Below, in pieces: positions 2,482 through 15,536 of a stretch of 64,000 bases of DNA (its first letter is position 1; every line of letters begins with the position of its first letter). This DNA comes from a virus (taxonomy: Duplodnaviria; Caudoviricetes): IMG/VR virus record IMGVR_UViG_3300032038_000059, positions 9,297 through 73,296 of that record. One strand, 5' to 3'. The translations under genes and the position numbers were made by a program. The notes below the pieces were generated by a model. The model was not told the DNA's origin. It worked only from the letters and a program-made list of their open reading frames with translations, and made no database searches.

Positions 2482-2751
2482 TTAAAATTTCCCCTGATAA
2501 ATCAAAACGTTTTTCTTATGGGCAACAACCATCTGGTGAACGAATTTCTCTAATTCGTCATTGCTATGCATATAAAAATACTGTGGAGATCTATACATAT
2601 TCTCTGAATCGAAATCATCGATGTTATCGCTCACTGCGACTGTGTATTTGATTTCCTTTTCCATGCTAGTCCTTCCCATCGAGCACCCTATAGACGATAT
2701 ATGTTGTTCTATTTTATTTTGTCGTATTGTAGAGAGTAGTATAATTTGCAT
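2482..2751 (-). CDS. Hypothetical protein
   Basis: ORF co-oriented in operon; start uncertain. Confidence 0.5.
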   Translation of the reverse strand: MQIILLSTIRQNKIEQHISSIGCSMGRTSMEKEIKYTVAVSDNIDDFDSENMYRSPQYFYMHSNDELEKFVHQMVVAHKKNVLIYQGKF

Positions 2752-2816
2752 AACTGTTCTGAACTATGCTTTTTTTGAACGGCATACACCGTCTACAAGA
2801 TGCTCGATGCCTTTTG

Positions 2817-4285: not shown

Positions 4286-5002
4286 TTATAGATCTATACT
4301 CTCACCCCTGTGGGCGATGTTAACATTTACATTGTCACCGCAGACTTCTTTAAGTTCACTCAGGATTTTTTTCTCGTCTGCATACTTGTCAGAAAGATGA
4401 CAAGCGATGACATTTTTACATTTGTCAGAAATCGACTTTTCCAAGAAGTTTTTGACAACTTCCAAACTACTGTGACCGCGCAACCTGTGTTCCCTAGCTT
4501 CGTCATTCAGATCGATGTCTTCTGAGTGATTTACGGCTATCAGGAAATGATTTATTTTCCATGTTTTGACGGTAACTGGAATGTATTCGAAGTCGGTAAC
4601 ATAAAGTAATCTCTCGCCATTATCAAACTCGATGATGTACCCGGAATTCGGAGTATCTTCATGTGGCACTGGAATCGGGATGACTTTATAGTGACCGATG
4701 ATTCGAGTTATCTTGTTTGATGACAGACTCCGCACATATTCTCCAGTTATTATTTTGAGGTTTTTTGCAGTTCTATCTTCTGCATATACCGGGATGCCGT
4801 TTTTATTGAAATGGCGATAATACTGTGCGTGATCGCCATGTTCATGAGTTATCAGGCAAGCGTCTATGGCACTCACCCGAAACCCACAAGCAATTTGTAC
4901 ATCTTTCCATTTCATCCCGGCATCAAGTGCGAGATAATGACCGTCATTTTCGATTACATAGCAGTTACCGTTGCTAGAACTCCCTAGAACATGAATTTTC
5001 AT
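4286..5002 (-). CDS. MBL-fold metallo-hydrolase (YycJ-like); true start at 5002
   Basis: MKIHVLGSSSNGNCY, LITHEHGDHA (HxHxDH), PHED, RGHSS, ACHLS. Confidence 0.9.
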   Translation of the reverse strand: MKIHVLGSSSNGNCYVIENDGHYLALDAGMKWKDVQIACGFRVSAIDACLITHEHGDHAQYYRHFNKNGIPVYAEDRTAKNLKIITGEYVRSLSSNKITRIIGHYKVIPIPVPHEDTPNSGYIIEFDNGERLLYVTDFEYIPVTVKTWKINHFLIAVNHSEDIDLNDEAREHRLRGHSSLEVVKNFLEKSISDKCKNVIACHLSDKYADEKKILSELKEVCGDNVNVNIAHRGESIDL

Positions 5003-5834
5003 TTTTATTTTCCTTCCTTGCAGACCAGTAGAAGCCACCTGCTTTATAACGAAAATTGCTATATGCCGCCCTTGCAATGTTTCCTTTGTTGATTGATGTA
5101 ATTTTATGTGCTTCCAAAAATCCATTAAACTCATTCACTATATTCATGTTGGTATCGTATTGCGTGACCTTTATTGTTTTTGATTTTTCTTTTGCATATG
5201 AATCATTACTAGAAGCATACTTGCTAATCAATTCCCTTTGAAGGCAACCACAGCTTTTTGATCTTCCAGAAGTTAAAGACCAAGACTTTACCTTCTTTTC
5301 ATTTCCACAGTCACACCTACAATTCCACACTGCACATCTTTCATATCCGGCAAAAGATAATACAGTCCATCTTCCAAAACGTCTCCCGGTTAAGTCAGTT
5401 GTGTTATATCCGCTTGCCACTACTGGCTCATCTATTGCTCTGTTTTTCAATAGACGTTTTTGCAATGTTTTTTCATTTATTTCCAATAGTTCCGATAATT
5501 GAGCGAGAGTATATTTCTTTCCCTTATATTCAATTATTCTGTTGTTCCTCTTGTTTGACTGTTGTTGCTTGTTTGTAATCCACCTGCAATTAGATGGGCA
5601 GTAGCAGTTATTTACATCTATTCTGTCTAAAGTTAAGTTATCATTGTAACCGTTGTCTAAAGCCCAGTCTCTAAAAGTTATGTAAGAGTTCTTCCACTCA
5701 TCACATACAACTATGCCCCTACCACCGTAATTACCATATTTTCTTCCTTTCTCGTAATAGCACCTAGCTTTCATATTTAGCCAAGATTGGTATAATCTTG
5801 TATTGCTTTCTCCGTGCCATTCTCTTTTCTTCAT
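4974..5834 (-). CDS. Free-standing HNH homing-endonuclease-like protein with CDCG and NUMOD1-like domains
   Basis: RLYQSWLNMKARC...YGGRGIVVCDEW...TLDRIDVN..YCPSNCRW; DLTGRRFGRWTV...WNCRCDCG...SKSCGC; C-terminal VTQYD...KAGGFYW. Confidence 0.8.
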   Translation of the reverse strand: MKKREWHGESNTRLYQSWLNMKARCYYEKGRKYGNYGGRGIVVCDEWKNSYITFRDWALDNGYNDNLTLDRIDVNNCYCPSNCRWITNKQQQSNKRNNRIIEYKGKKYTLAQLSELLEINEKTLQKRLLKNRAIDEPVVASGYNTTDLTGRRFGRWTVLSFAGYERCAVWNCRCDCGNEKKVKSWSLTSGRSKSCGCLQRELISKYASSNDSYAKEKSKTIKVTQYDTNMNIVNEFNGFLEAHKITSINKGNIARAAYSNFRYKAGGFYWSARKENKNENSCSREF

Positions 5835-5854
5835 TTAAATAAACTCCATAACCA

Positions 5855-6775
5855 TCACGATATTTCCTCTGCATCTGCTTCGATGACAAGTTCTTCGGCA
5901 TTCGCCTTTTCTGCAATTTCAGTTTCTGCTGTTTCCGCAGGATCTTCAGGAAGATTATCTACGTACTTAACTTCCCCGGATTCATTCAGAACACCCATGT
6001 CAGATGTAAATGCACGTTGCAGATCAATGCTCATAACGCCCCATTTGGAAATTAACTGGCGAAGCATTGTTTTCTCAGCCATTCCGTCAAAATCTTTGTA
6101 CCAGAAGGATGAATAAAGCCATTCGTCTTTCGCAGGATATTTCCCGTCCAGATAATCCTGATACGAAACTTTCGGATATTTACCTCCCTTCGCATTAAGA
6201 CTGAATGCACTGCTGTATCGATCAGCATGAGCAAGCATCTTTTCTTTGCTCCAGTAGATTTCTTTCTTGAATCCGTTGATAAGTTCGAAAGCTGCGTAAT
6301 ACCCAACAACCGGGAGAGATTCCCTTAATTCCATATCCAAAATTGGTTCAAAAACATATTCTTCCGTAATTGGGTTGAATGACTTCAACTCTCCTTTTTT
6401 GACAGCAGATGCTACGATCTTTCTGTACTGACCGCTACGAATCGCAAGCTGCCGATAACCTTTACTCCCAAGCTGAAACTGGGCTTCAGTTACACCATTT
6501 TTATTTTTGTACGGAACGAGAAAAAATTGTCCCAATTGCGGTGAAGGAGATAACTTCAATGACTCTCCAAGCAACGCTGCGGAGAAAATGGAACTGTTTG
6601 TACACTCTGCAAGCGACTTATTTGCCTGTACAGCAGACACAATTGATGCAATAAAAGATTGCGTATTTTTCTCTCCAACCACACCTGCGATATTCTGTCT
6701 GACCGCAGGATTTGCACAAAACGTAGCAAACCCCACTTTCTGGGGTTGTGTATTAGTTACTGATGTCGATGCCAT
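5855..6775 (-). CDS. recT: RecT-family single-strand annealing recombinase
   Basis: LGESLKLSPSPQLGQFFLVPY, AQFQLGSKGYRQLAIRSGQY, MAEKTMLRQL. Confidence 0.95.
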   Translation of the reverse strand: MASTSVTNTQPQKVGFATFCANPAVRQNIAGVVGEKNTQSFIASIVSAVQANKSLAECTNSSIFSAALLGESLKLSPSPQLGQFFLVPYKNKNGVTEAQFQLGSKGYRQLAIRSGQYRKIVASAVKKGELKSFNPITEEYVFEPILDMELRESLPVVGYYAAFELINGFKKEIYWSKEKMLAHADRYSSAFSLNAKGGKYPKVSYQDYLDGKYPAKDEWLYSSFWYKDFDGMAEKTMLRQLISKWGVMSIDLQRAFTSDMGVLNESGEVKYVDNLPEDPAETAETEIAEKANAEELVIEADAEEIS

Positions 6776-6798
6776 ATAATCTCCTTTCTTAAATGTGT

Positions 6799-7233
6799 AT
6801 CATGCACCTAGAAGATGATTTGAATTATGCTGTTCTGTAGTGTTCTTTTGTGATAAAGGCTATGCTAGACAGTTCATTCAAACCATCATTTAGATGCACG
6901 ATGTTATTGTCCTGTCATTTCTTGCGGTTTCATGTTATGATAGTTATTATGTTTTCCTATTATGTAATGGATGCTTCATGCACCCGGAAAACAACTCGTA
7001 TTGTAATATGCTATTTTGTCGTGATTTGACCTGTGGTAAATTAAAGTGTCAGATCGTGTCGTAAACAACACAAGTTGTCATCTAGATGCATGAAAGCCCG
7101 TGTGCTTAAGAATGACTATAAAAGCCATGTCTTGCGATATATTGTTCTGTCCTGTCGTGTTCCGCGCTGTTGTGTCGTTTAGTATGCTATTGTTTGTTCT
7201 TATGACTCTTACAGCCACACCTCAACACACGGG
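6799..7233 (-). ncRNA. Pentamer-repeat guide-like array, downstream part (4 tracts: 6816-6875, 6903-6972, 6997-7071, 7128-7192)
   Basis: 5-nt periodicity T(G/A)TNN on + strand (NN-AYA on the gene strand), 12-15 units per tract, flanked by inverted repeats such as CCCGTGTG/CACACGGG. Confidence 0.85.
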
Positions 7234-7244
7234 CGAAATATTAT

Positions 7245-7877
7245 TTATGCTTCAACATTTGATACATGGAATCTTCCGTAACCAGATGTTCTTCCAGAAC
7301 CAATTCCACTACCGAAACCTGCGAGGTTAATCACATTTACAATCTGCTCAATTCCGTAAACATTCTCCGTATACTTAATAGTGAACGTTGCGCTCCACCC
7401 GGAAAAACGATTAAGGTGAACCAGAACAGGTGCTCCACGCTTCGGAGACATCAGCTTCTCGTCAATAAAGTGATCCGTAAACTTAATCGGGATAAGCCCA
7501 CCAGTTGCAACGATATTCAGTGCAGAATCCATTTTTGTGGAGTAAGTATCAATTCCGTTTCTGACAACTGCTGCGAGAATAGCTTTCTTCAGCCCGAATG
7601 CGGTGATGCATGGAGCATTATTCTGTAAAGCATTGATAAGTGCTTCTTCCGTAAATTCTTTCGGATAGCCATCTCTCCAGTGCATAGCCGTAATAATGCA
7701 TTCCCATTCATTCGGCTTCTCTGTTGACTTCGCCTTGTCTTTGCGCTGATCTGTAAGAGCACGAATTGTCGGTTCGTTCATTTTATTCAGAACCAGATCG
7801 CCATCGCCCTCAATTGTAATTATTGCAGTATTAACCTTAATCTCCTTTAATTCGATTGCCTGTTCCTTCTTTGCCAT
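7245..7877 (-). CDS. Small Cas7/RAMP-like protein (VIPR-like effector candidate)
   Basis: N-terminal ITIEGDGDLVLN strand, F.GWSATFTIKY strand, C-terminal glycine-rich loop AGFGSGIGSGRTSGYGRFHV typical of RAMP folds; sits between pentamer arrays. Confidence 0.8.
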   Translation of the reverse strand: MAKKEQAIELKEIKVNTAIITIEGDGDLVLNKMNEPTIRALTDQRKDKAKSTEKPNEWECIITAMHWRDGYPKEFTEEALINALQNNAPCITAFGLKKAILAAVVRNGIDTYSTKMDSALNIVATGGLIPIKFTDHFIDEKLMSPKRGAPVLVHLNRFSGWSATFTIKYTENVYGIEQIVNVINLAGFGSGIGSGRTSGYGRFHVSNVEA

Positions 7878-7942
7878 AATTTTTCTCCTTTTGTTTTTAA
7901 TTAATTAATTGATATTGTGTTGTGTTGTTCGCGAATAAACAC

Positions 7943-8718
7943 AATTACAGACACTTCTGAAATCCTATGTAGTAAGCTGTCCTATATTATGCTTTATTGA
8001 ATTAAGCTGACCTTTCCTTTTGATTTCCTATCCTGATATGTCCTACTACGGGAGAAATGCCCGTAATTCTATCTATTCGCTTTATACGCTTAATTAACGG
8101 AGTAAGGTATGCTGTAGTATGCTTATTTATGCTGTTGCGTCATGATCTAAACTGTCATAACATACGGATTACTCCGTTAACTAAATGCATATATCATCCG
8201 CTCAACAAGCAACACTGTCTTCGGCTATGCTGAGTTATAGTGCGTTGAATTGACCTGTATTTTCCTACGCTTGGCAATGTTGCCAGTAGAACGGACGATA
8301 ATTTATTTTGTTCTTAATTGAAATCTAGGATTTTATCATTTAGTGTTTTGATTTGATATAGAGCAAATATGCGCTCAACTAGCGATACGAACTTTTGCAA
8401 TGTCCTATACTGAATTTGTCTGCGCTAAAGTATTCTTCGCTGTTGTATGACTATCATGAAATATCGTTAGCTATTTCGGCTCATATCGCCGGGTGAACGC
8501 ATATTGTTTTATACTGTTTTATATTGTTAAAACGTATTCCATAGAAAGCTGTTCTTTCCTGTAATATTGTTGAGCAATTGGCTCGGAAGATGATGCAATG
8601 TTATGTTTTGTGATATGCAGTATTATCATGCTGTTTGTTGTTGCGTCATTCTCTTTGGGATTCTATCTTGTTCTACATGGTGCAAAATCTATTACACCAT
8701 CATCAGAACCAACCGCTC
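7943..8718 (-). ncRNA. Pentamer-repeat guide-like array, upstream part (7 tracts: 7968-8048, 8103-8167, 8216-8275, 8299-8368, 8386-8461, 8500-8569, 8599-8678)
   Basis: Strict 5-nt phase, e.g. tgtct tcggc tatgc tgagt tatag tgcgt tgaat tgacc tgtat tttcc tacgc ttggc; stems such as TTAACGGAGTAA/TTACTCCGTTAA; most stem mismatches become G-U pairs on the minus strand. Confidence 0.88.
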
Positions 8719-8726
8719 AGATACAT

Positions 8727-9221
8727 TTATGAAACTCTTAAAAACTCATCAATAGCTTCAATCACAGAATCAAGTTCCGTTAATCGCTGATATCTATTTT
8801 TGATACCTTCAAGTTCAATCTTTGCCCGATCCAGAAGCTTTTCGTATTCATCTTTATTCTCATAAAAGAACTTCACAGGTTTGTATGTACCTGTTCTAGA
8901 ACTGTCTGCTTCAACTAAGCGAAAAACAGTTTTCTCTTCTTCTTTAGTTTCAGGGTCTTCCCGAATAAGGACGAAATTCTTTACAAGACGTTGAGCCTGA
9001 ATCACACGATACTTTTCAGAAGCTACTTTGTTGTCCCATTCAAAGTAGTTATGCATCGCAGACTTCTTGTTTCTGGCGAGATCTACGATATCTGAAAGCG
9101 TTCTACTTTCACCGTCTCCGTAGATTTCATCGTAAGTCTTCTGCGGATCAATCCCTTTCATAATTCCCGGAAGTTTCCACCCGGCTTTCTGTGAGAAACT
9201 CCACACCGTATTTCCTTCCAT
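8727..9221 (-). CDS. Conserved phage protein next to the RAMP/array locus (candidate accessory factor)
   Basis: MHNYFEWDNKVASEKYRVIQAQRLV motif; immediately upstream of the array. Confidence 0.7.
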   Translation of the reverse strand: MEGNTVWSFSQKAGWKLPGIMKGIDPQKTYDEIYGDGESRTLSDIVDLARNKKSAMHNYFEWDNKVASEKYRVIQAQRLVKNFVLIREDPETKEEEKTVFRLVEADSSRTGTYKPVKFFYENKDEYEKLLDRAKIELEGIKNRYQRLTELDSVIEAIDEFLRVS

Positions 9222-9234
9222 TACTCTCTCCCCC

Positions 9235-11142
9235 TTAGTTAACAGTCAGTTCCTTATCATCTGAAACCTTAAGCAACACCATCTGCCCATCCATCTCAGG
9301 AAGGTTATCTGAAGATAAACATTCTGCATTATCAATGAAAACCGGGAGTTCTACTCCGTACAGCTTTCTGAACGTCTTGATAATCTGAAGACCTGCCGTA
9401 ATACGGTGACCACTATTCAAAGATGAATAAGGAACTCCGTTGTAAGTAATGGAGCAAGTTTCTTTAATGCCACCATTGATCTGGTTTTCAAATAATTTGA
9501 ACTCCAGTCCATCAAACTGAGAATTAATCAACGAAGATAATGCCTTGACGTAGTTCTCCAGTACGAAAAGCTTTCTCTCCGCATCAGAGATTCGCTGTGC
9601 AACACTCTTAAGTTCTTCCGTTTTCGCATCGATATCAGCTTCGATCTGCTGATTAATGCCGACCTGCGCCAAACTCTGCTGCACGGCAGAAATATTAGCC
9701 TTTATCTCAGAGCGTTTCTGCTCTAACTGAAATTTCTGATTCTGAAGTTCCGGGAGATCAACCATCTCTCCGTAAAGTTCCTGAATCTGCTTTTCCAGTT
9801 CGACATATTCAGGGAGATCTTTTCCGTCAGATATTGGCTGAGATTCGGCAGTTTTCAAAGTAGCCGAAACTTCTTCAAGTCTCGTCTTTAAGTTTTCAAA
9901 GGTCTTTTTCTGATTCTCCAGAGATGATTCAGATTCTGCGATCTGCTTCTCCAGTTCGCGAGTCTGAAGATAAAGTTCATTACCCTTATTCTTAGCGTTC
10001 TCAGTTTCATCTTTGTGTCTCTTCTCCCAATCAACCTTGATCTTTTCCAGATCCGTAGTGGGAAGCTTCTGACCACATCTTGGACAATACGATTCATTTT
10101 CTGGGAACTTCTCTTCCAACATCTTCTTGTACAGCTTCAGAAGATTGTTAACCTGTTCCTGCTTAGTTTTAAGACCATTCTTCTTCCGATTAATGTTGTT
10201 TTCTTCAGAAGTTAGCGAAAACTCTGCTATCTGGTATTCTCTCTGCACTGCATCAACAGCACTTCTGGCTTCTCGGACATCGGCACTACGTTTATCATTA
10301 GCAGCCAAGATTATTACTTTCTGCTGTGATTTGAGTTCTGTGATCTTCGATTCAATCGCTGAATTATTTACTTTGGAAACCTTAAAGATCTCTTCGTTTA
10401 CGGAATCGAGATCTAAATTGAGGGAGGATTCCTTTTCTCTTAACGTCTTCTCATCTACCTCGCGTATCTGTCCGTGAAGAGTATTGATTTCCACTGGCAG
10501 CTGTTCTTGACGCTTAGTCAGTTCTTTCTTTTCCAGAGAATATTTCTTCTTTACGGCATCAGGCGATTCCTGAAGAATGTCCGCAGATATCAAATCAAAG
10601 TAATCAACGTTCTTCCCCACTTCTTCCGGGGAGATATTGATCAGGCTCAGAAGTAACTTTCTCTGTTCTTTCCAATCCAAATTCGGAAACGTCATCGGAT
10701 TTGAGAGAATCTGGAAGACGTTTTCATCTACTATTGATGCTATGAAGTCCTCATACTCTCTAGCGGATTTCGGGAAGCCATTAATGAGATAGCTGTCCTT
10801 ATTTCCTGAGAATTCCTGTTCTTCCTGACCGCGCTTTTTCACCCATTTTTCCTCTTGGATGCGCTGAAGCGTTGTCTCTGTTCCATCAATCTCAGCCACA
10901 AGCGTGACGGATATTTTGGTGTGGTGAACCTTGTCACCATTCGAATCCAGTTCTCTGATCTCGAACTTCGAGTTGCCGTGACTGTCCGTTCCGAAGAATA
11001 ACCACCAGATGCTATCAATTACGGTTGTTTTCCCGGTTGCATTACGTCCAGAAATAACATTTGCAAGATCGTTGAAATCTATCTGTAAATTCCTTATGCC
11101 CTTGAAATTTTCAAAGGAAAGAGACTTAAATTTGACGTTCAT
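9235..11142 (-). CDS. SMC/SbcC-like AAA ATPase with coiled coil and CxxC hook
   Basis: FENFKGI, Walker A GRNATGKTT, YCPRCGQ, signature LNSGHR, Walker B PVFIDNAE. Confidence 0.9.
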   Translation of the reverse strand: MNVKFKSLSFENFKGIRNLQIDFNDLANVISGRNATGKTTVIDSIWWLFFGTDSHGNSKFEIRELDSNGDKVHHTKISVTLVAEIDGTETTLQRIQEEKWVKKRGQEEQEFSGNKDSYLINGFPKSAREYEDFIASIVDENVFQILSNPMTFPNLDWKEQRKLLLSLINISPEEVGKNVDYFDLISADILQESPDAVKKKYSLEKKELTKRQEQLPVEINTLHGQIREVDEKTLREKESSLNLDLDSVNEEIFKVSKVNNSAIESKITELKSQQKVIILAANDKRSADVREARSAVDAVQREYQIAEFSLTSEENNINRKKNGLKTKQEQVNNLLKLYKKMLEEKFPENESYCPRCGQKLPTTDLEKIKVDWEKRHKDETENAKNKGNELYLQTRELEKQIAESESSLENQKKTFENLKTRLEEVSATLKTAESQPISDGKDLPEYVELEKQIQELYGEMVDLPELQNQKFQLEQKRSEIKANISAVQQSLAQVGINQQIEADIDAKTEELKSVAQRISDAERKLFVLENYVKALSSLINSQFDGLEFKLFENQINGGIKETCSITYNGVPYSSLNSGHRITAGLQIIKTFRKLYGVELPVFIDNAECLSSDNLPEMDGQMVLLKVSDDKELTVN

Positions 11143-13128: not shown

Positions 13129-13518
13129 ATGGTTAGTACAGCAAAAAGATTGCAGGAATTGATAGATTATTACGGCATAAGTGCAGCCGAATTATCAAAG
13201 AGTGTTGGTATTGCTAAGTCTTCTATTTCAATGTGGCTTAATGGTCAGCGAACCATGCGTCAGGATAAGATCGGCTTAATCGCAAGACACTATAACATCG
13301 ACCCGGCTTGGCTCATGGGATATGATGTGCCGATGCATAGAACGGAAGATGTTTCTCAGGAAGATCCCGGAATTGTCGTAACTGATAAGGATAATCGCTT
13401 CAGTATTCATTTTCGTGACGGCAAGACGATGAGTGATGAAGATAAAAAGTTGCTCAAAGAACAGTTGGAAAACACTATCGATATCTTTTATAAATTGAGG
13501 GGAATTGATAAGAAGTGA
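13129..13518 (+). CDS. CI-like XRE-family repressor
   Basis: RLQELI...ISAAELSKSVGIAKSSISMWLNG...IDPAWLMGYDVPM. Confidence 0.92.
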   Translation: MVSTAKRLQELIDYYGISAAELSKSVGIAKSSISMWLNGQRTMRQDKIGLIARHYNIDPAWLMGYDVPMHRTEDVSQEDPGIVVTDKDNRFSIHFRDGKTMSDEDKKLLKEQLENTIDIFYKLRGIDKK

Positions 13519-14129
13519 TTAAGCCTAACTACAATAAATGCAAACAAACTGCAAATAAGATCCTTTTAGCACAGGAAGAATTGCCGCTAACTCCAAATGT
13601 CTTCCATATGCACTCCGATAAAAAGATCATCATCTCTTCCATTCAAGACTACTGTAAGATGCTTCATATTAACATTGGAGCATTCACATATGGGTATAAG
13701 ACGCTTAATGGCGTGAAGATCTATGACCGGGAGCGAGATATCTATACAATTCTATATAACGGATATTCAAACCGTTTAATCAGTGTTCGGTGGGATATAG
13801 CGCATGAACTTGGGCATATATTTCTTGAGCATAAAGATGAGAGCGATGTTGAAGAAACTGAAGCGAACACATTTGCAAGACAGTTGCTGATGCCTGAGTA
13901 TACCGTATTGCGAATCTGGACGGATTATAAAATTATCAATACACAAGCATTCTCGGCTATCTTCGATGTATCGCCTACTGTTGCAAGTTACCTAATTCAG
14001 AATCTTAAGAAACGAGGATGTATCAGAGTAACATCCGATGACATTGAAATATGGGAAAGGCAGAAAGGATATGTAGAAGAAAGAATCTCTTATGCAGAGA
14101 GGTTCTATGATCTAGAAGCAATGATTTAA
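13515..14129 (+). CDS. ImmA/IrrE-family metallo-endopeptidase (anti-repressor protease)
   Basis: RWDIAHELGHI (HExxH) and E.EANTFARQLLMP; directly after the repressor. Confidence 0.9.
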   Translation: MIKPNYNKCKQTANKILLAQEELPLTPNVFHMHSDKKIIISSIQDYCKMLHINIGAFTYGYKTLNGVKIYDRERDIYTILYNGYSNRLISVRWDIAHELGHIFLEHKDESDVEETEANTFARQLLMPEYTVLRIWTDYKIINTQAFSAIFDVSPTVASYLIQNLKKRGCIRVTSDDIEIWERQKGYVEERISYAERFYDLEAMI

Positions 14130-14136
14130 CCATCAT

Positions 14137-14168
14137 AAAATGCACGTTCCATCTACGTGTATTTTTTG
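14137..14168 (+). terminator. Hairpin/terminator between immA and int
   Basis: AAAATGCACG-ttccatcta-CGTGTATTTTTT. Confidence 0.5.
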
Positions 14169-14193
14169 TACTCATTTTTAAGGGAGAATAATT

Positions 14194-15222
14194 ATGGCGA
14201 AAGCAACATTGACACCATCTGGAAAATATAGATGCCAAGTATACATAGGCACTGATGCTGATGGAAAGCGTAAGTACAAAGTATTTACAGATGCAGATAA
14301 GCGAAGATGTGAAAGGAAAGCATCTGAGTTCGCAGATGAGCATCGAGTCGCAAAAAACTCAGATGAGATTGGTCATGCAATAGAACATTATATAACAATC
14401 AAAGAAGCTGTTTTAAGCCCTTCAACGATCAGGGGGTATGAAGCTATCAATCGAACCATTAAAACGTCCTATAGCGCGTTCTACGAGCGCAGAATGGCTA
14501 CTCTGGATAAGGATACTCTGCAGGAGTTCATAAATGACTTGCTGATGGATGGAAAGAAACCAAAAACGATCCGAAATATGGTTGGACTGGTAACGGCAGT
14601 CATCGATTACAATGACTACCATGTGCCGAAGACAAGACTCCCTGAACGCAAGAAACCAGACTTGCATATTCCAGACACGAAGGATGTGGCAAAGATCATC
14701 AAAGAAGCAGAAGGGACAGAAATGGAGATCCCGGTTTTACTCGCAGCTTTAGCTTCGATGAGAAGAAGCGAGATATGTGCTTTAACTCTTGATGACATAT
14801 CTGGCACAACAATCCATGTCCATAAAGCAATGGTTCTCAGTCCACGCGATAAATTTGTAACGAAAGGGACTAAGACGTATGACAGTGATAGATACATACC
14901 GATGCAAAAAGAGATCATCGACAAGATCATGAAGAAGGGATGCATCACCAACATCAAAACTCCCGGAGGACTTACAACTGGATTTGAGCGTATAGCTGAG
15001 AAGGTTGGATGCAAGGGGACAAGATTTCATGATCTCCGTCACTGGTGTGCAAGCTACCTTCATGCAAAGGGAGTCCCGGATCAGTACATCATGATAAGGG
15101 GAGGATGGAAGACGGATAGAGTGATGAAAGCTGTATACACACATGAACTCGCGTCCGAATCCGATAAATGGAATAAACAGATCGATAAGTATTTCGAAGA
15201 GGCTGTCAAGTTGCATGGCTAA
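14194..15222 (+). CDS. int: Tyrosine integrase
   Basis: MRRSEICAL (R), FHDLRH (HxxR), GGW, VYTH (Y); N-terminal arm-binding and SAM-like domains. Confidence 0.95.
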   Translation: MAKATLTPSGKYRCQVYIGTDADGKRKYKVFTDADKRRCERKASEFADEHRVAKNSDEIGHAIEHYITIKEAVLSPSTIRGYEAINRTIKTSYSAFYERRMATLDKDTLQEFINDLLMDGKKPKTIRNMVGLVTAVIDYNDYHVPKTRLPERKKPDLHIPDTKDVAKIIKEAEGTEMEIPVLLAALASMRRSEICALTLDDISGTTIHVHKAMVLSPRDKFVTKGTKTYDSDRYIPMQKEIIDKIMKKGCITNIKTPGGLTTGFERIAEKVGCKGTRFHDLRHWCASYLHAKGVPDQYIMIRGGWKTDRVMKAVYTHELASESDKWNKQIDKYFEEAVKLHG

Positions 15223-15527
15223 TTTTAAATCGCCAATAAATGCAGTAAAATTAAGTTGCTTCAAGTTGCATTTTAAGTTGCACAGCAAGTTGCATCGATA
15301 TTCTTTGTGCAAATTTACTATAACTCTCAGGAATAAAATATAAGCAATATGAATAAAAAACGCCTGATTTTTCGTGAAAATGGCACAAAAAAAGACCGAT
15401 TAGCCCTTGAAAAATAATGGAAAATCGGTCTAAAAACGGAGAGTGTGGGATTCGAACCCAGAACTAACCTCTAAAAAGCGTTGATTTTACTGCATTTTTT
15501 AACGCTCAAGTTGCATTTTAAGTTGCA
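15206..15527. other. attP: core matching a tRNA-Ser 3' end (15437-15460) flanked by arm-type repeats
   Basis: Reverse complement of 15437-15460 is TGGGTTCGAATCCCACACTCTCCG (T-arm plus acceptor); AAGTTGC(A/T) occurs once near 15206, four times in 15251-15295 and twice in 15506-15527. Confidence 0.85.
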
Positions 15528-15536
15528 TATTTAAAA

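What the first reader, a model, noticed from the sequence alone, without database searches (positions are those of the whole stretch)
8500..8569. Guide tract decodes to an integrase helix of this phage's own family while avoiding self
Seen: TT GG GA GC CT GA CG TA AT AA GT AA gives L/F-G-D/E-A-L-D/E-R-Y-I/M-K/N-V-K/N. This aligns with the phage's own integrase segment IGHAIEHYITIK (just before EAVLSPSTIRGY), but only 6 of 12 dinucleotides match the self gene. Inference: the target is a related integrase, possibly of a phage competing for the same att site.
Basis: partly seen in the sequence, partly recalled or inferred. Interest (0 to 1): 0.85.

Follow-up and report, generated by a model that had tools for sequence, protein, structure and literature searches.

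The report
Phage VIPR guide aimed at integrases
One guide RNA of this temperate phage's VIPR system (a CRISPR-related gene silencer first described in 2026) spells, in its skip-one-base code, a helix of the integrase genes of other integrating elements but not the phage's own, so it is a good new example of a known kind of inter-virus weapon.

Summary
On the minus strand, 8564..8508 holds 12 pentamers, each two variable bases followed by a W-Y-A triplet.

The tract belongs to a VIPR system. The adjacent 210-aa gene is a Vipr homologue: its family profile hits the solved SUSP1 Vipr at E 6e-14, and it has a Cas7-like fold. Relatives carry the same arrays.

Read by the published one-base-skip rule, the guide matches the phage's own integrase at only 18/24 positions, which is no better than chance (P about 0.07).

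Exact sub-pattern scans of public collections returned only tyrosine integrase genes. All hits were in frame and at the same N-terminal helix:
- two IMG/VR phages at 21/24;
- one Acetobacter element at 22/24.

A sibling phage carries the same guide with only its last three dinucleotides changed, although its own integrase is different.

No perfect target was found. The best candidate phage carries a different tRNA-like att fragment, so the "same att site" idea is unsupported.

Recombinase targeting by VIPR and non-GGY repeats are both already in 2026 preprints. This scan has also noted integrase-directed VIPR guides on other DNA. Verdict: a new member of a known kind.

The parts
8508..8564 (-). 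The guide tract: 12 pentamer units (NN + W-Y-A). NN series TT GG GA GC CT GA CG TA AT AA GT AA. Three central triplets (uuu, aug, uuu) depart from the A-Y-A consensus.
8572..8584 (-). Small hairpin (GAGC-loop-GCUC) just 5' of the tract in gene sense. Similar small hairpins recur in the array and may be a processing or handle element (inferred).
8366..8505 (-). Long hairpin (arms 8481-8505 and 8366-8390) starting directly 3' of the tract and enclosing the next pentamer tract. RNA fold z-score -4.0 in gene sense.
7878..8726 (-). Upstream non-coding vrRNA array of about seven pentamer tracts, to which the guide belongs.
7245..7877 (-). vipr gene: 210-aa lone RAMP/Cas7-like protein, homologue of SUSP1 Vipr.
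6776..7244 (-). Downstream vrRNA array (about four tracts).
8727..9221 (-). 164-aa protein (phrog_15946), present upstream of the array in the close and mid-distance relatives examined (L007-L013, L064-L067). Candidate accessory (vap) gene; function not tested.
14368..14403 (+). Homologous helix (IGHAIEHYITIK) in the phage's own integrase. 18/24 guide positions match, below the published 80% threshold.
14194..15222 (+). The phage's own tyrosine integrase (PF00589).
15437..15460 (-). tRNA 3'-end-like fragment (T-loop plus acceptor strand) next to the integrase, the likely attP core. The isotype could not be assigned.

Best explanation
The tract is one guide (vrRNA guide region) of a VIPR system. 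It is transcribed with the vipr operon on the minus strand. Vipr protomers bind one pentamer each, sequester the W-Y-A triplet and expose the two variable bases. These bases pair with double-stranded DNA while skipping every third base. Read that way, the 12 dinucleotides specify codon positions 1-2 of [LF]-G-[DE]-A-L-[DE]-R-Y-I-[KN]-V-[KN]. This is the helix that precedes the conserved AVLSPSTIRGY motif in the N-terminal domain of tyrosine integrases, about 60 codons into the gene. The guide would therefore place a Vipr filament on the 5' part of the integrase gene of another integrating element (temperate phage, satellite or ICE) in the same host. That would block its transcription, and so its integration or excision, while leaving the carrier's own integrase (75% match, with mismatches spread over six units) untouched. 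Shown here: the tract and its phasing; Vipr homology; co-occurrence of gene and arrays in relatives; the gene-sense strand; and the in-frame integrase matches. Inferred from the published SUSP1 work: filament formation, the skip rule for this non-GGY subtype, silencing, and its biological consequence.
For: System identity:
- The family profile of the 210-aa protein hits PDB 36pp_D 'SUSP1 Vipr protein' at E 6.1e-14. hhalign against the SUSP1 gene product gives 98.5% probability.
- The AF2 model has pLDDT 96.5, and Foldseek's top hits are Cmr4/Csm3/Cas7.
- Homologues in L001-L003, L007-L013 and L064-L067 keep long non-coding gaps around the gene. In L001-L003 the pentamer tracts were scanned and lie in the same orientation relative to the gene.

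Strand:
- 11 of 15 non-Watson-Crick positions in the three long stems are G.U in gene sense, against 2 of 15 on the other strand.
- SUSP1 vrRNAs are also in gene sense.

Target:
- Exact scan of units 2-11 over 596 Gb of genomes gave one gene (two identical copies). It is a PF00589 integrase of Acetobacter estunensis reading VGEALERYIKVR in frame (22/24). BLASTP aligns it onto the own-integrase helix.
- Exact scan of units 1-9 over IMG/VR gave two phage contigs, both reading FGEALERYINER (21/24), followed by SAVLSPASIRKY. That integrase is 38% identical (E 6e-80) to the window's.
- In 103 of 121 homologues of the own integrase, the guide's best in-frame site is this same alignment column.
- In the complete 39.9-kb candidate phage G001, the guide scores 20/20 over ten units with a 1-base skip, but only 14-15 with skips of 0, 2 or 3. 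The other eleven tracts stay at background.

Sibling evidence:
- Phages with 98%-identical Vipr (L007-L010) keep units 1-9 and change only units 10-12 (AA GT AA to GA TC AG). That is 4 of the 14 NN substitutions seen in the whole 834-nt alignment.
- Both endings, YI[KN]V[KN] and YI[DE]S[SR], occur in the integrase family.
- The sibling's own integrase reads FGSCLEQYITRR, only 14/24.

Precedent:
- The 1-nt skip rule and the 80% threshold come from bioRxiv 10.64898/2026.04.26.720920.
- SUSP1 VIPR silences a satellite's excision recombinase (10.64898/2026.10.15.759431).
- Structural mechanism: 10.64898/2026.04.26.720927.
Against: - No 12/12 target was found in IMG/VR, GTDB species genomes or JGI metagenomes. 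Units 4-12 and the sibling's full pattern also gave nothing.
- The best matches miss the last two units (G001) or the first and last units (Acetobacter). The Acetobacter element cannot be the natural target of a 40% G+C phage whose integrase relatives are annotated as Lachnospiraceae.
- Three central triplets (uuu, aug, uuu) deviate from the consensus, so Vipr loading on this tract is not assured.
- The skip rule has been demonstrated only for GGY-type systems. Here the G-binding G-loop residues of SUSP1 Vipr (D177, W178) align with Ser and Gly.
- Across the whole array, substitutions between sibling phages are not enriched at NN positions (6.3% against 4.7%, p = 0.38).
- There are no expression data.
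Confidence: 0.72

Rival explanations
1. One reading: the target is the integrase of a phage that competes for the same attachment site (proposed to be tRNA-Ser).
For: The window's integrase is followed by a tRNA 3'-end-like fragment at 15437-15460 (-) whose acceptor strand could fit a tRNA-Ser (isotype not assignable). The guide's target helix belongs to the same integrase family.
Against: The best phage candidate (G001/G002, 21/24) has an integrase only 38% identical to the window's. It is followed by a different tRNA-like fragment with a different T-loop and acceptor sequence. The closest homologues of the own integrase (60-97% identity), which are the ones most likely to share its att site, match the guide no better than 18-19/24. 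The sibling phage keeps the guide although it carries a different integrase.
Confidence: 0.1
2. The guide regulates the phage's own integrase through the partial (75%) match, as an autoregulatory roadblock.
For: The best 1-base-skip match inside the contig is the own integrase helix, at 18/24.
Against: 18/24 is reached by 7.4% of shuffled guides and is below the published 80% threshold, which no self hit passed (10.64898/2026.04.26.720920). Mismatches fall in six different units. The sibling phage with the near-identical guide has an integrase matching only 14/24. Foreign integrases match better, at 21-22/24.
Confidence: 0.05
3. The tract is a decaying or idle guide, or a decoy, with no current target. 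Its integrase-like code is a remnant of a past target.
For: No perfect target turned up in three large collections. Three central triplets are off consensus. The repertoire turns over quickly: L064, with 98%-identical Vipr, lacks this guide.
Against: Units 1-9, including the off-consensus triplets, are conserved unchanged in four independent metagenome contigs, while units 10-12 changed to another real allele of the helix. The VIPR paper reports frequent internal degeneracy in working vrRNAs. The scannable collections sample gut phages poorly: most relatives come from Logan or ENA assemblies that cannot be pattern-scanned.
Confidence: 0.12
4. Pure chance: the resemblance to an integrase helix is a product of looking at many tracts and many proteins.
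For: The self-match alone is not significant (P = 0.074 per guide, with about 11 guides). The number of sub-pattern hits (one gene in 596 Gb for 20 specified bases) is about what random expectation gives by my estimate (1.2e12 positions / 4^20, about 1).
Against: All three independent hits are in frame, in PF00589 integrases, at the exact helix predicted beforehand from the own gene. Two other 18-base patterns gave no hits at all. Among about 2,300 windows from 19 arrays, only this guide and its sibling exceed 17/20 against 157 integrase N-termini.
Confidence: 0.03

Closest known systems
VIPR system of Escherichia phage SUSP1 (type II; Vipr + vap1 + four vrRNAs; bioRxiv 10.64898/2026.04.26.720920 and 10.64898/2026.04.26.720927; PDB 36pp)
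   Same: Both have a lone roughly 200-aa RAMP protein homologous by sequence profile. Both have non-coding arrays on both sides of the gene, on the gene's strand. Guides are built of 9-16 pentamers with three scaffold bases and two variable bases. The variable bases match coding DNA with every third (wobble) base skipped. Both are phage-encoded, and self sites stay below 80%.
   Different: The scaffold triplet here is W-Y-A (mostly ACA/AUA) rather than GGY. The G-contacting G-loop residues D177 and W178 align with Ser and a near-invariant Gly. Tracts are interleaved with long hairpins instead of a 5' hairpin plus 3' pseudoknot tail. The carrier is a temperate, 40% G+C phage with Lachnospiraceae-type relatives. 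The accessory gene is an unrelated 164-aa protein. Nothing here has been tested experimentally.
SUSP1 vrRNA4 targeting the excision recombinase of F5 satellites (bioRxiv 10.64898/2026.10.15.759431)
   Same: In both, a VIPR guide reads codon positions 1-2 of a recombinase gene of a competing integrative element. The expected outcome is loss of excision or integration.
   Different: In SUSP1 the carrier is a lytic phage, the target is a satellite, and the 6-unit footprint is verified by qPCR and genetics. Here a temperate phage carries a 12-unit guide against the N-terminal helix of a tyrosine integrase family that includes its own. The natural target element is unidentified.
Non-canonical VIPR repeat classes (GAC/NN, CAC/NN, WGT/NN, TGH/NN) reported from language-model entropy periodicity (bioRxiv 10.64898/2026.10.21.760802)
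   Same: Both are 5-nt periodic arrays with a non-GGY scaffold next to Vipr-like folds. The plus-strand reading of this array, T-[G/A/T]-[T/A/C]-NN, resembles their TGH/NN class.
   Different: That report gives motifs only, with no targets. The strand convention of those logos is not stated in the text I could read, so whether they are the same class is unverified.
Class 1 CRISPR Cas7 backbone filaments (Csm3/Cmr4)
   Same: Same fold (Foldseek E 1e-5 to 1e-6), and both use thumb-mediated periodic base flipping.
   Different: Here there are no CRISPR repeats, no cas1/cas2 and no other Cas subunits. The period is 5 with only 2 pairing bases, rather than 6 with 5.

Membership tests
VIPR system | A Vipr protein: a lone minimal RAMP (RRM core, thumb, glycine-rich loop) homologous to described Viprs | tested here: met
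   Profile A1 against the PDB hits only 36pp_D 'SUSP1 Vipr protein', E 6.1e-14. hhalign gives 98.5%. AF2 pLDDT is 96.5 with Cmr4/Csm3 as top folds. G187, G191 and G201 are invariant.
VIPR system | Flanking non-coding arrays of tandem pentamers (three scaffold + two variable bases), 9-16 units per guide | tested here: met
   Tracts lie only in the gaps around the gene, with none in 20 shuffles. They hold 12-19 units each. The same is seen in L001-L003. The guide in question has 12 units.
VIPR system | Scaffold triplet GGY (canonical) or a listed G-ending variant (NNNGG, YNNNG, NNNNG) | tested here: not met
   The consensus here is NN-[A/u]-[C/U]-A, with position 5 A in 77% of 192 units. Non-GGY scaffolds are reported elsewhere (10.64898/2026.10.21.760802), so I take this as a subtype difference and not as grounds for exclusion.
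VIPR system | vrRNAs transcribed on the vipr strand and bound by Vipr | tested here: inconclusive
   The strand is inferred from G.U pairs (11 of 15 against 2 of 15) and lower folding energies in gene sense, and by analogy with SUSP1. No convincing promoters were found. Expression and binding cannot be tested with these tools.
VIPR system | Variable dinucleotides match natural DNA targets with a one-base skip at 80% or more, mostly in frame with the skip at the wobble position, and no self hit at 80% or more | tested here: met
   21/24 (87.5%) in two IMG/VR phages and 22/24 (92%) in an Acetobacter element, all in frame. Self is 18/24 (75%). Skips of 0, 2 and 3 stay at background.
VIPR system | NN positions hypervariable between close relatives while the scaffold is kept | tested here: inconclusive
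   Not significant across the whole array (p = 0.38). In this guide, however, 4 NN changes cluster in units 10-12 and the two scaffold changes are Y-to-Y transitions. More distant relatives carry entirely different guides.
VIPR system | An accessory vap gene next to vipr | tested here: inconclusive
   A 155-166-aa gene lies upstream of the array in the relatives examined, and a 162-aa ORF holds the same position in L002. It has no Pfam family, only phrog_15946. It was not compared with vap1-6.
Tyrosine integrase (target gene class) | The matched genes carry the Phage_integrase catalytic domain, and the match lies at the helix homologous to own residues 59-70 | tested here: met
   PF00589 is found in the own gene, in L015:978-2081 and in L005:6752-7798. 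BLASTP aligns the three helices onto each other. PF14659 (SAM-like N-terminal domain) starts at the matched helix (residues 83-136) in the L015 protein.

The most novel reading that the evidence does not exclude
The two sibling versions of this guide differ only in their last three dinucleotides. Each version spells a real allele of the integrase helix (...YI[KN]V[KN] against ...YI[DE]S[SR]). This could be a caught-in-the-act case of vrRNA retargeting by local patch replacement or strong diversifying selection at one end of a guide. It would bear on the open question of how VIPR guides are renewed without Cas1/Cas2. It could also define a biochemically distinct A-type scaffold code (W-Y-A read by a Ser/Gly G-loop) in gut Firmicutes phages.
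Probability: 0.25. Interest if true: 0.7.

Novelty: new member of a known kind. Interest (0 to 1): 0.45.

Why it matters
VIPR systems were described only in 2026, and their natural targets are known for a handful of Proteobacteria phages. This tract gives a concrete, testable target class for a non-GGY VIPR subtype carried by temperate gut-type phages: the 5' part of tyrosine integrase genes. It extends to that subtype the published picture that VIPR immobilises rivals by silencing their recombinases. The pair of sibling guides offers a small natural experiment on how guide specificity drifts. None of this changes the known principle.

Tried and rejected
1. Period-3 regex of the 12 dinucleotides in the window with up to 3 mismatches: none.
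2. Full 12-unit pattern in IMG/VR, GTDB genomes and JGI metagenomes: none.
3. Units 2-11 in IMG/VR and metagenomes: none. Units 4-12 in IMG/VR: none. The sibling's full pattern in IMG/VR: none.
4. blastn of the array and tblastn of Vipr against INPHARED phages: no match.
5. The search for related loci with the own integrase: no close relative in IMG/VR.
6. Word-indexed protein search with the Acetobacter helix region: only itself. No database protein in the searched length range (191-609 aa) shares that exact stretch. Variants with D/E, K/N or I/M swaps would not have been seen.
7. Fourier power at period 5 did not single out the arrays. The in-phase triplet count did.
8. The family-wide mean score at the helix (15.6 against a null of 12.2 +/- 0.8, P = 0.005) is not independent of the self-match. 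It would not survive correction over the whole proteome, so I do not rest the case on it.
9. The other eleven tracts against the complete candidate phages G001, G003 and G004 and the fragment G002: background only, with one borderline 18/20. So there is no convergence of several guides on that phage.
10. Rfam found nothing in the arrays and could not type the att fragments.
11. The genome search 'relatives' is not available for a virus record, so no host pangenome could be searched.
12. The Acetobacter hit was rejected as the natural target on host grounds. I keep it only as evidence of what the code spells.

Full report
WHAT IS THERE

The window is 64 kb of a 73,296-nt viral contig from a temperate phage. 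On the plus strand it has a repressor, an M78 peptidase and a tyrosine integrase at 13129-15222. A long minus-strand early operon follows with Ant, an SMC/AAA_15-type ATPase, a 164-aa gene, a 210-aa gene, RecT and an HNH endonuclease. Two ORF-free gaps, 7878-8726 and 6776-7244, flank the 210-aa gene.

It is present 24/24 with a 5-nt period on the minus strand at 8564..8508. In gene sense each unit is two variable bases followed by a triplet that is mostly ACA or AUA.

Over 192 units in twelve tracts the unit composition is N, N, A (59%) or U (23%), C or U (74%), A (77%). In-phase triplet runs of this kind occur only in these gaps and at 1936-2774, only on one strand, and never in Markov shuffles. 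The one clarification is that the tract is a 5-nt periodic guide-type repeat read on the minus strand.

WHAT SYSTEM IT BELONGS TO

A literature search found the VIPR preprints. In these systems a lone RAMP protein, Vipr, polymerises on a vrRNA made of 9-16 pentamers (GGY + NN). The NN bases pair with double-stranded DNA while every third target base is skipped, and the skipped base usually falls on the codon wobble position (structures).

The 210-aa protein is a Vipr:
- A profile of 56 family members hits only "SUSP1 Vipr protein" in the PDB, at E 6.1e-14.
- hhalign against the SUSP1 gene product gives 98.5% probability.
- The AF2 model (pLDDT 96.5) finds Cmr4/Csm3 backbone subunits as its best folds.

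The family is large: 2,293 clusters at 90% identity and 527 at 50%. It is unannotated. Homologues at 60-98% identity keep long non-coding gaps beside the gene; where I scanned for tracts (L001-L003) they lie in the same orientation.

The RNA strand is the gene strand. In the three long stems, 11 of 15 non-Watson-Crick positions are G.U in gene sense against 2 of 15 on the other strand, and folding energies are lower in gene sense. In SUSP1 I found the GGY tracts on the vipr strand as well.

The scaffold differs from the canonical one, being W-Y-A rather than GGY. SUSP1's G-contacting residues D177 and W178 align with Ser and a near-invariant Gly here, which fits a changed scaffold code. This is an inference. 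Non-GGY scaffolds have been reported from a language-model survey, including a TGH/NN class that resembles the opposite-strand reading of this array.

THE SELF-MATCH

With a one-base skip, the guide's best site in the whole contig is the own-integrase helix IGHAIEHYITIK at 14368-14403. Six units match fully and six match by one base, giving 18/24. Shuffling the order of the 12 units gives 18/24 or better somewhere in the contig in 7.4% of 500 trials. Taken alone, and with about eleven guides in the locus, this is unremarkable.

Across 121 homologues of the integrase, the guide's best in-frame site is the same alignment column in 103. The column mean is 15.6 against a null of 12.2 +/- 0.8. This is correlated with the self-match, so I treat it as supporting evidence only. 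No homologue exceeds 19/24.

THE DECISIVE TEST

The full 12-unit pattern has no exact match in IMG/VR, in 596 Gb of species-representative genomes or in JGI metagenomes. Sub-patterns gave the following.

- Units 2-11 (20 specified bases) matched one gene, present as two identical copies on one Acetobacter estunensis contig. It is a 348-aa PF00589 integrase. The match is in frame and reads VGEALERYIKVR, and BLASTP aligns this stretch onto residues 58-69 of the window's integrase. Guide identity is 22/24.
- Units 1-9 matched two IMG/VR phage contigs from different samples. Both are in frame and read FGEALERYINER, followed by SAVLSPASIRKY. That integrase (367 aa, PF00589 plus a SAM-like N-terminal domain) is 38% identical to the window's (E 6e-80). 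It sits in an ordinary lysogeny module. Guide identity is 21/24.
- Units 4-12 and the sibling's full pattern gave nothing at all.

By my estimate, about one random hit is expected for 20 specified bases in 1.2e12 positions, so the number of hits says little. What matters is that every hit lies in frame on the very helix predicted beforehand. Both identities exceed the 80% threshold of the VIPR paper, and the self site does not.

In the complete 39.9-kb candidate phage (G001), the guide scores 20/20 over ten units with a one-base skip but only 14-15 with skips of 0, 2 or 3. This is a small internal control for the skip rule in this non-GGY subtype. Thirty-five further relatives of that integrase score 14-19/24, nearly always at the same helix.

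THE SIBLING GUIDE

Four metagenome contigs with a 98%-identical Vipr (L007-L010) have an almost identical array. This guide keeps units 1-9 and changes units 10-12 from AA GT AA to GA TC AG, and two scaffold bases change C to U or U to C. These four NN changes are 4 of only 14 NN substitutions in the whole 834-nt alignment.

The new ending decodes to [DE]-S-[SR]. "YIESR" is a common ending of this helix in the family (for example P0298, P0306 and P0314), just as "..V-K" endings exist for the window's version.

The sibling phage carries a different integrase (FGSCLEQYITRR) that matches either guide at only 14/24. The guide therefore does not follow its carrier's integrase. It looks tuned to alleles of a foreign one. 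A third phage with 98%-identical Vipr (L064) lacks the guide, and more distant relatives carry unrelated guides.

WHAT IS NOT SUPPORTED

The natural target has not been found. The Acetobacter element is in the wrong host range. The IMG/VR phages miss the last two units.

The suggestion that the rival competes for the same att site finds no support:
- The window has a tRNA 3'-end-like fragment at 15437-15460 (-), flanked by AAGTTGCA repeats.
- The candidate phage has a different tRNA-like fragment after its integrase.
- Neither fragment could be typed.
- The closest relatives of the own integrase match the guide no better than the own gene does.

The other guides of the array do not converge on the candidate phage. 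Three central scaffold triplets of the tract are off consensus, so loading by Vipr is assumed and not shown.

HOW IT MOST LIKELY WORKS

The following steps are inferred from the SUSP1 work. The array is transcribed with the early operon. Vipr coats each guide, hiding W-Y-A and presenting NN. The filament invades DNA at the matching NNx-periodic site, about 60 codons into a foreign integrase gene, and blocks its transcription.

For SUSP1, silencing a satellite's excision recombinase keeps the satellite locked in the chromosome. The same logic would let this phage, during lytic growth or induction, immobilise a resident prophage, satellite or ICE, or stop a co-infecting temperate phage from integrating. 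Reading only codon positions 1-2 makes the guide insensitive to synonymous escape.

COMPARISON AND VERDICT

This is a member of the VIPR kind with a non-canonical scaffold, and its guide is aimed at a tyrosine integrase helix. Three things are already in 2026 preprints: recombinase targeting, phage-against-phage use, and non-GGY scaffolds. This scan has also noted integrase-directed VIPR guides in several other genomes, mostly against catalytic motifs rather than this N-terminal helix.

I rate it a new member of a known kind, of moderate interest. The pair of sibling guide alleles is its most original feature.

Noticed in passing
window 15209-15295, 15437-15460 and 15509-15528: Likely attP. 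A tRNA 3'-end-like fragment (minus strand) followed by a terminator-like hairpin is flanked on both sides by six copies of AAGTTGCA, which could be integrase arm-type sites.
   Followed up: partly
window 2690-2774 (-) and 1936-2000: Another in-phase pentamer tract (9 A-Y-A units of 21) lies about 4.5 kb from vipr, in the gap between the genes ending at 2471 and 2817. It may be a stand-alone ('solo') vrRNA like those described for SUSP1-family phages. The 1936-2000 signal lies inside an ORF and may be coincidental.
   Followed up: no
window 9235-11142 (-): A 635-aa SMC_N/AAA_15 ATPase (phrog_77) sits upstream of the 164-aa gene in every relative from 77% to 98% Vipr identity. The homologue in L066 gives a weak DUF2813 (OLD-type) hit. 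It is absent within 3 kb in L002, so it may be an optional effector of the system or simply a conserved neighbour.
   Followed up: partly
window 7245-7877 (-), residues about 187-201: In the glycine-rich loop GIGSGR, the positions aligned with SUSP1 Vipr D177 and W178 (which hold the two guanines of GGY) are Ser and a near-invariant Gly. This may explain the A-type scaffold.
   Followed up: partly
L007-L010 compared with window 4974-6775: Sibling phages with 98%-identical Vipr and a near-identical array differ in the flanking modules. They have a different integrase and repressor region, and a 330-aa protein plus a metallo-beta-lactamase-fold protein in place of RecT/HNH. The VIPR cassette therefore moves between mosaic phage backbones.
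   Followed up: no
L015 (= G002) about 10301, minus strand: The guide tract at window 6972-6903 reaches 18/20 over ten units at a site inside the RecT gene of the candidate phage fragment. This is just above the 14-17 background and is unverified.
   Followed up: no
L004 3929-4975 (-) and L005 6752-7798 (+): The Acetobacter estunensis integrase carrying the 22/24 match appears in both loci fetched from one 540-kb contig, on opposite strands in locus orientation; I did not check whether the two loci overlap in the contig, so two separate copies are not established. In L004 it lies next to a tRNA-Glu gene.
   Followed up: no
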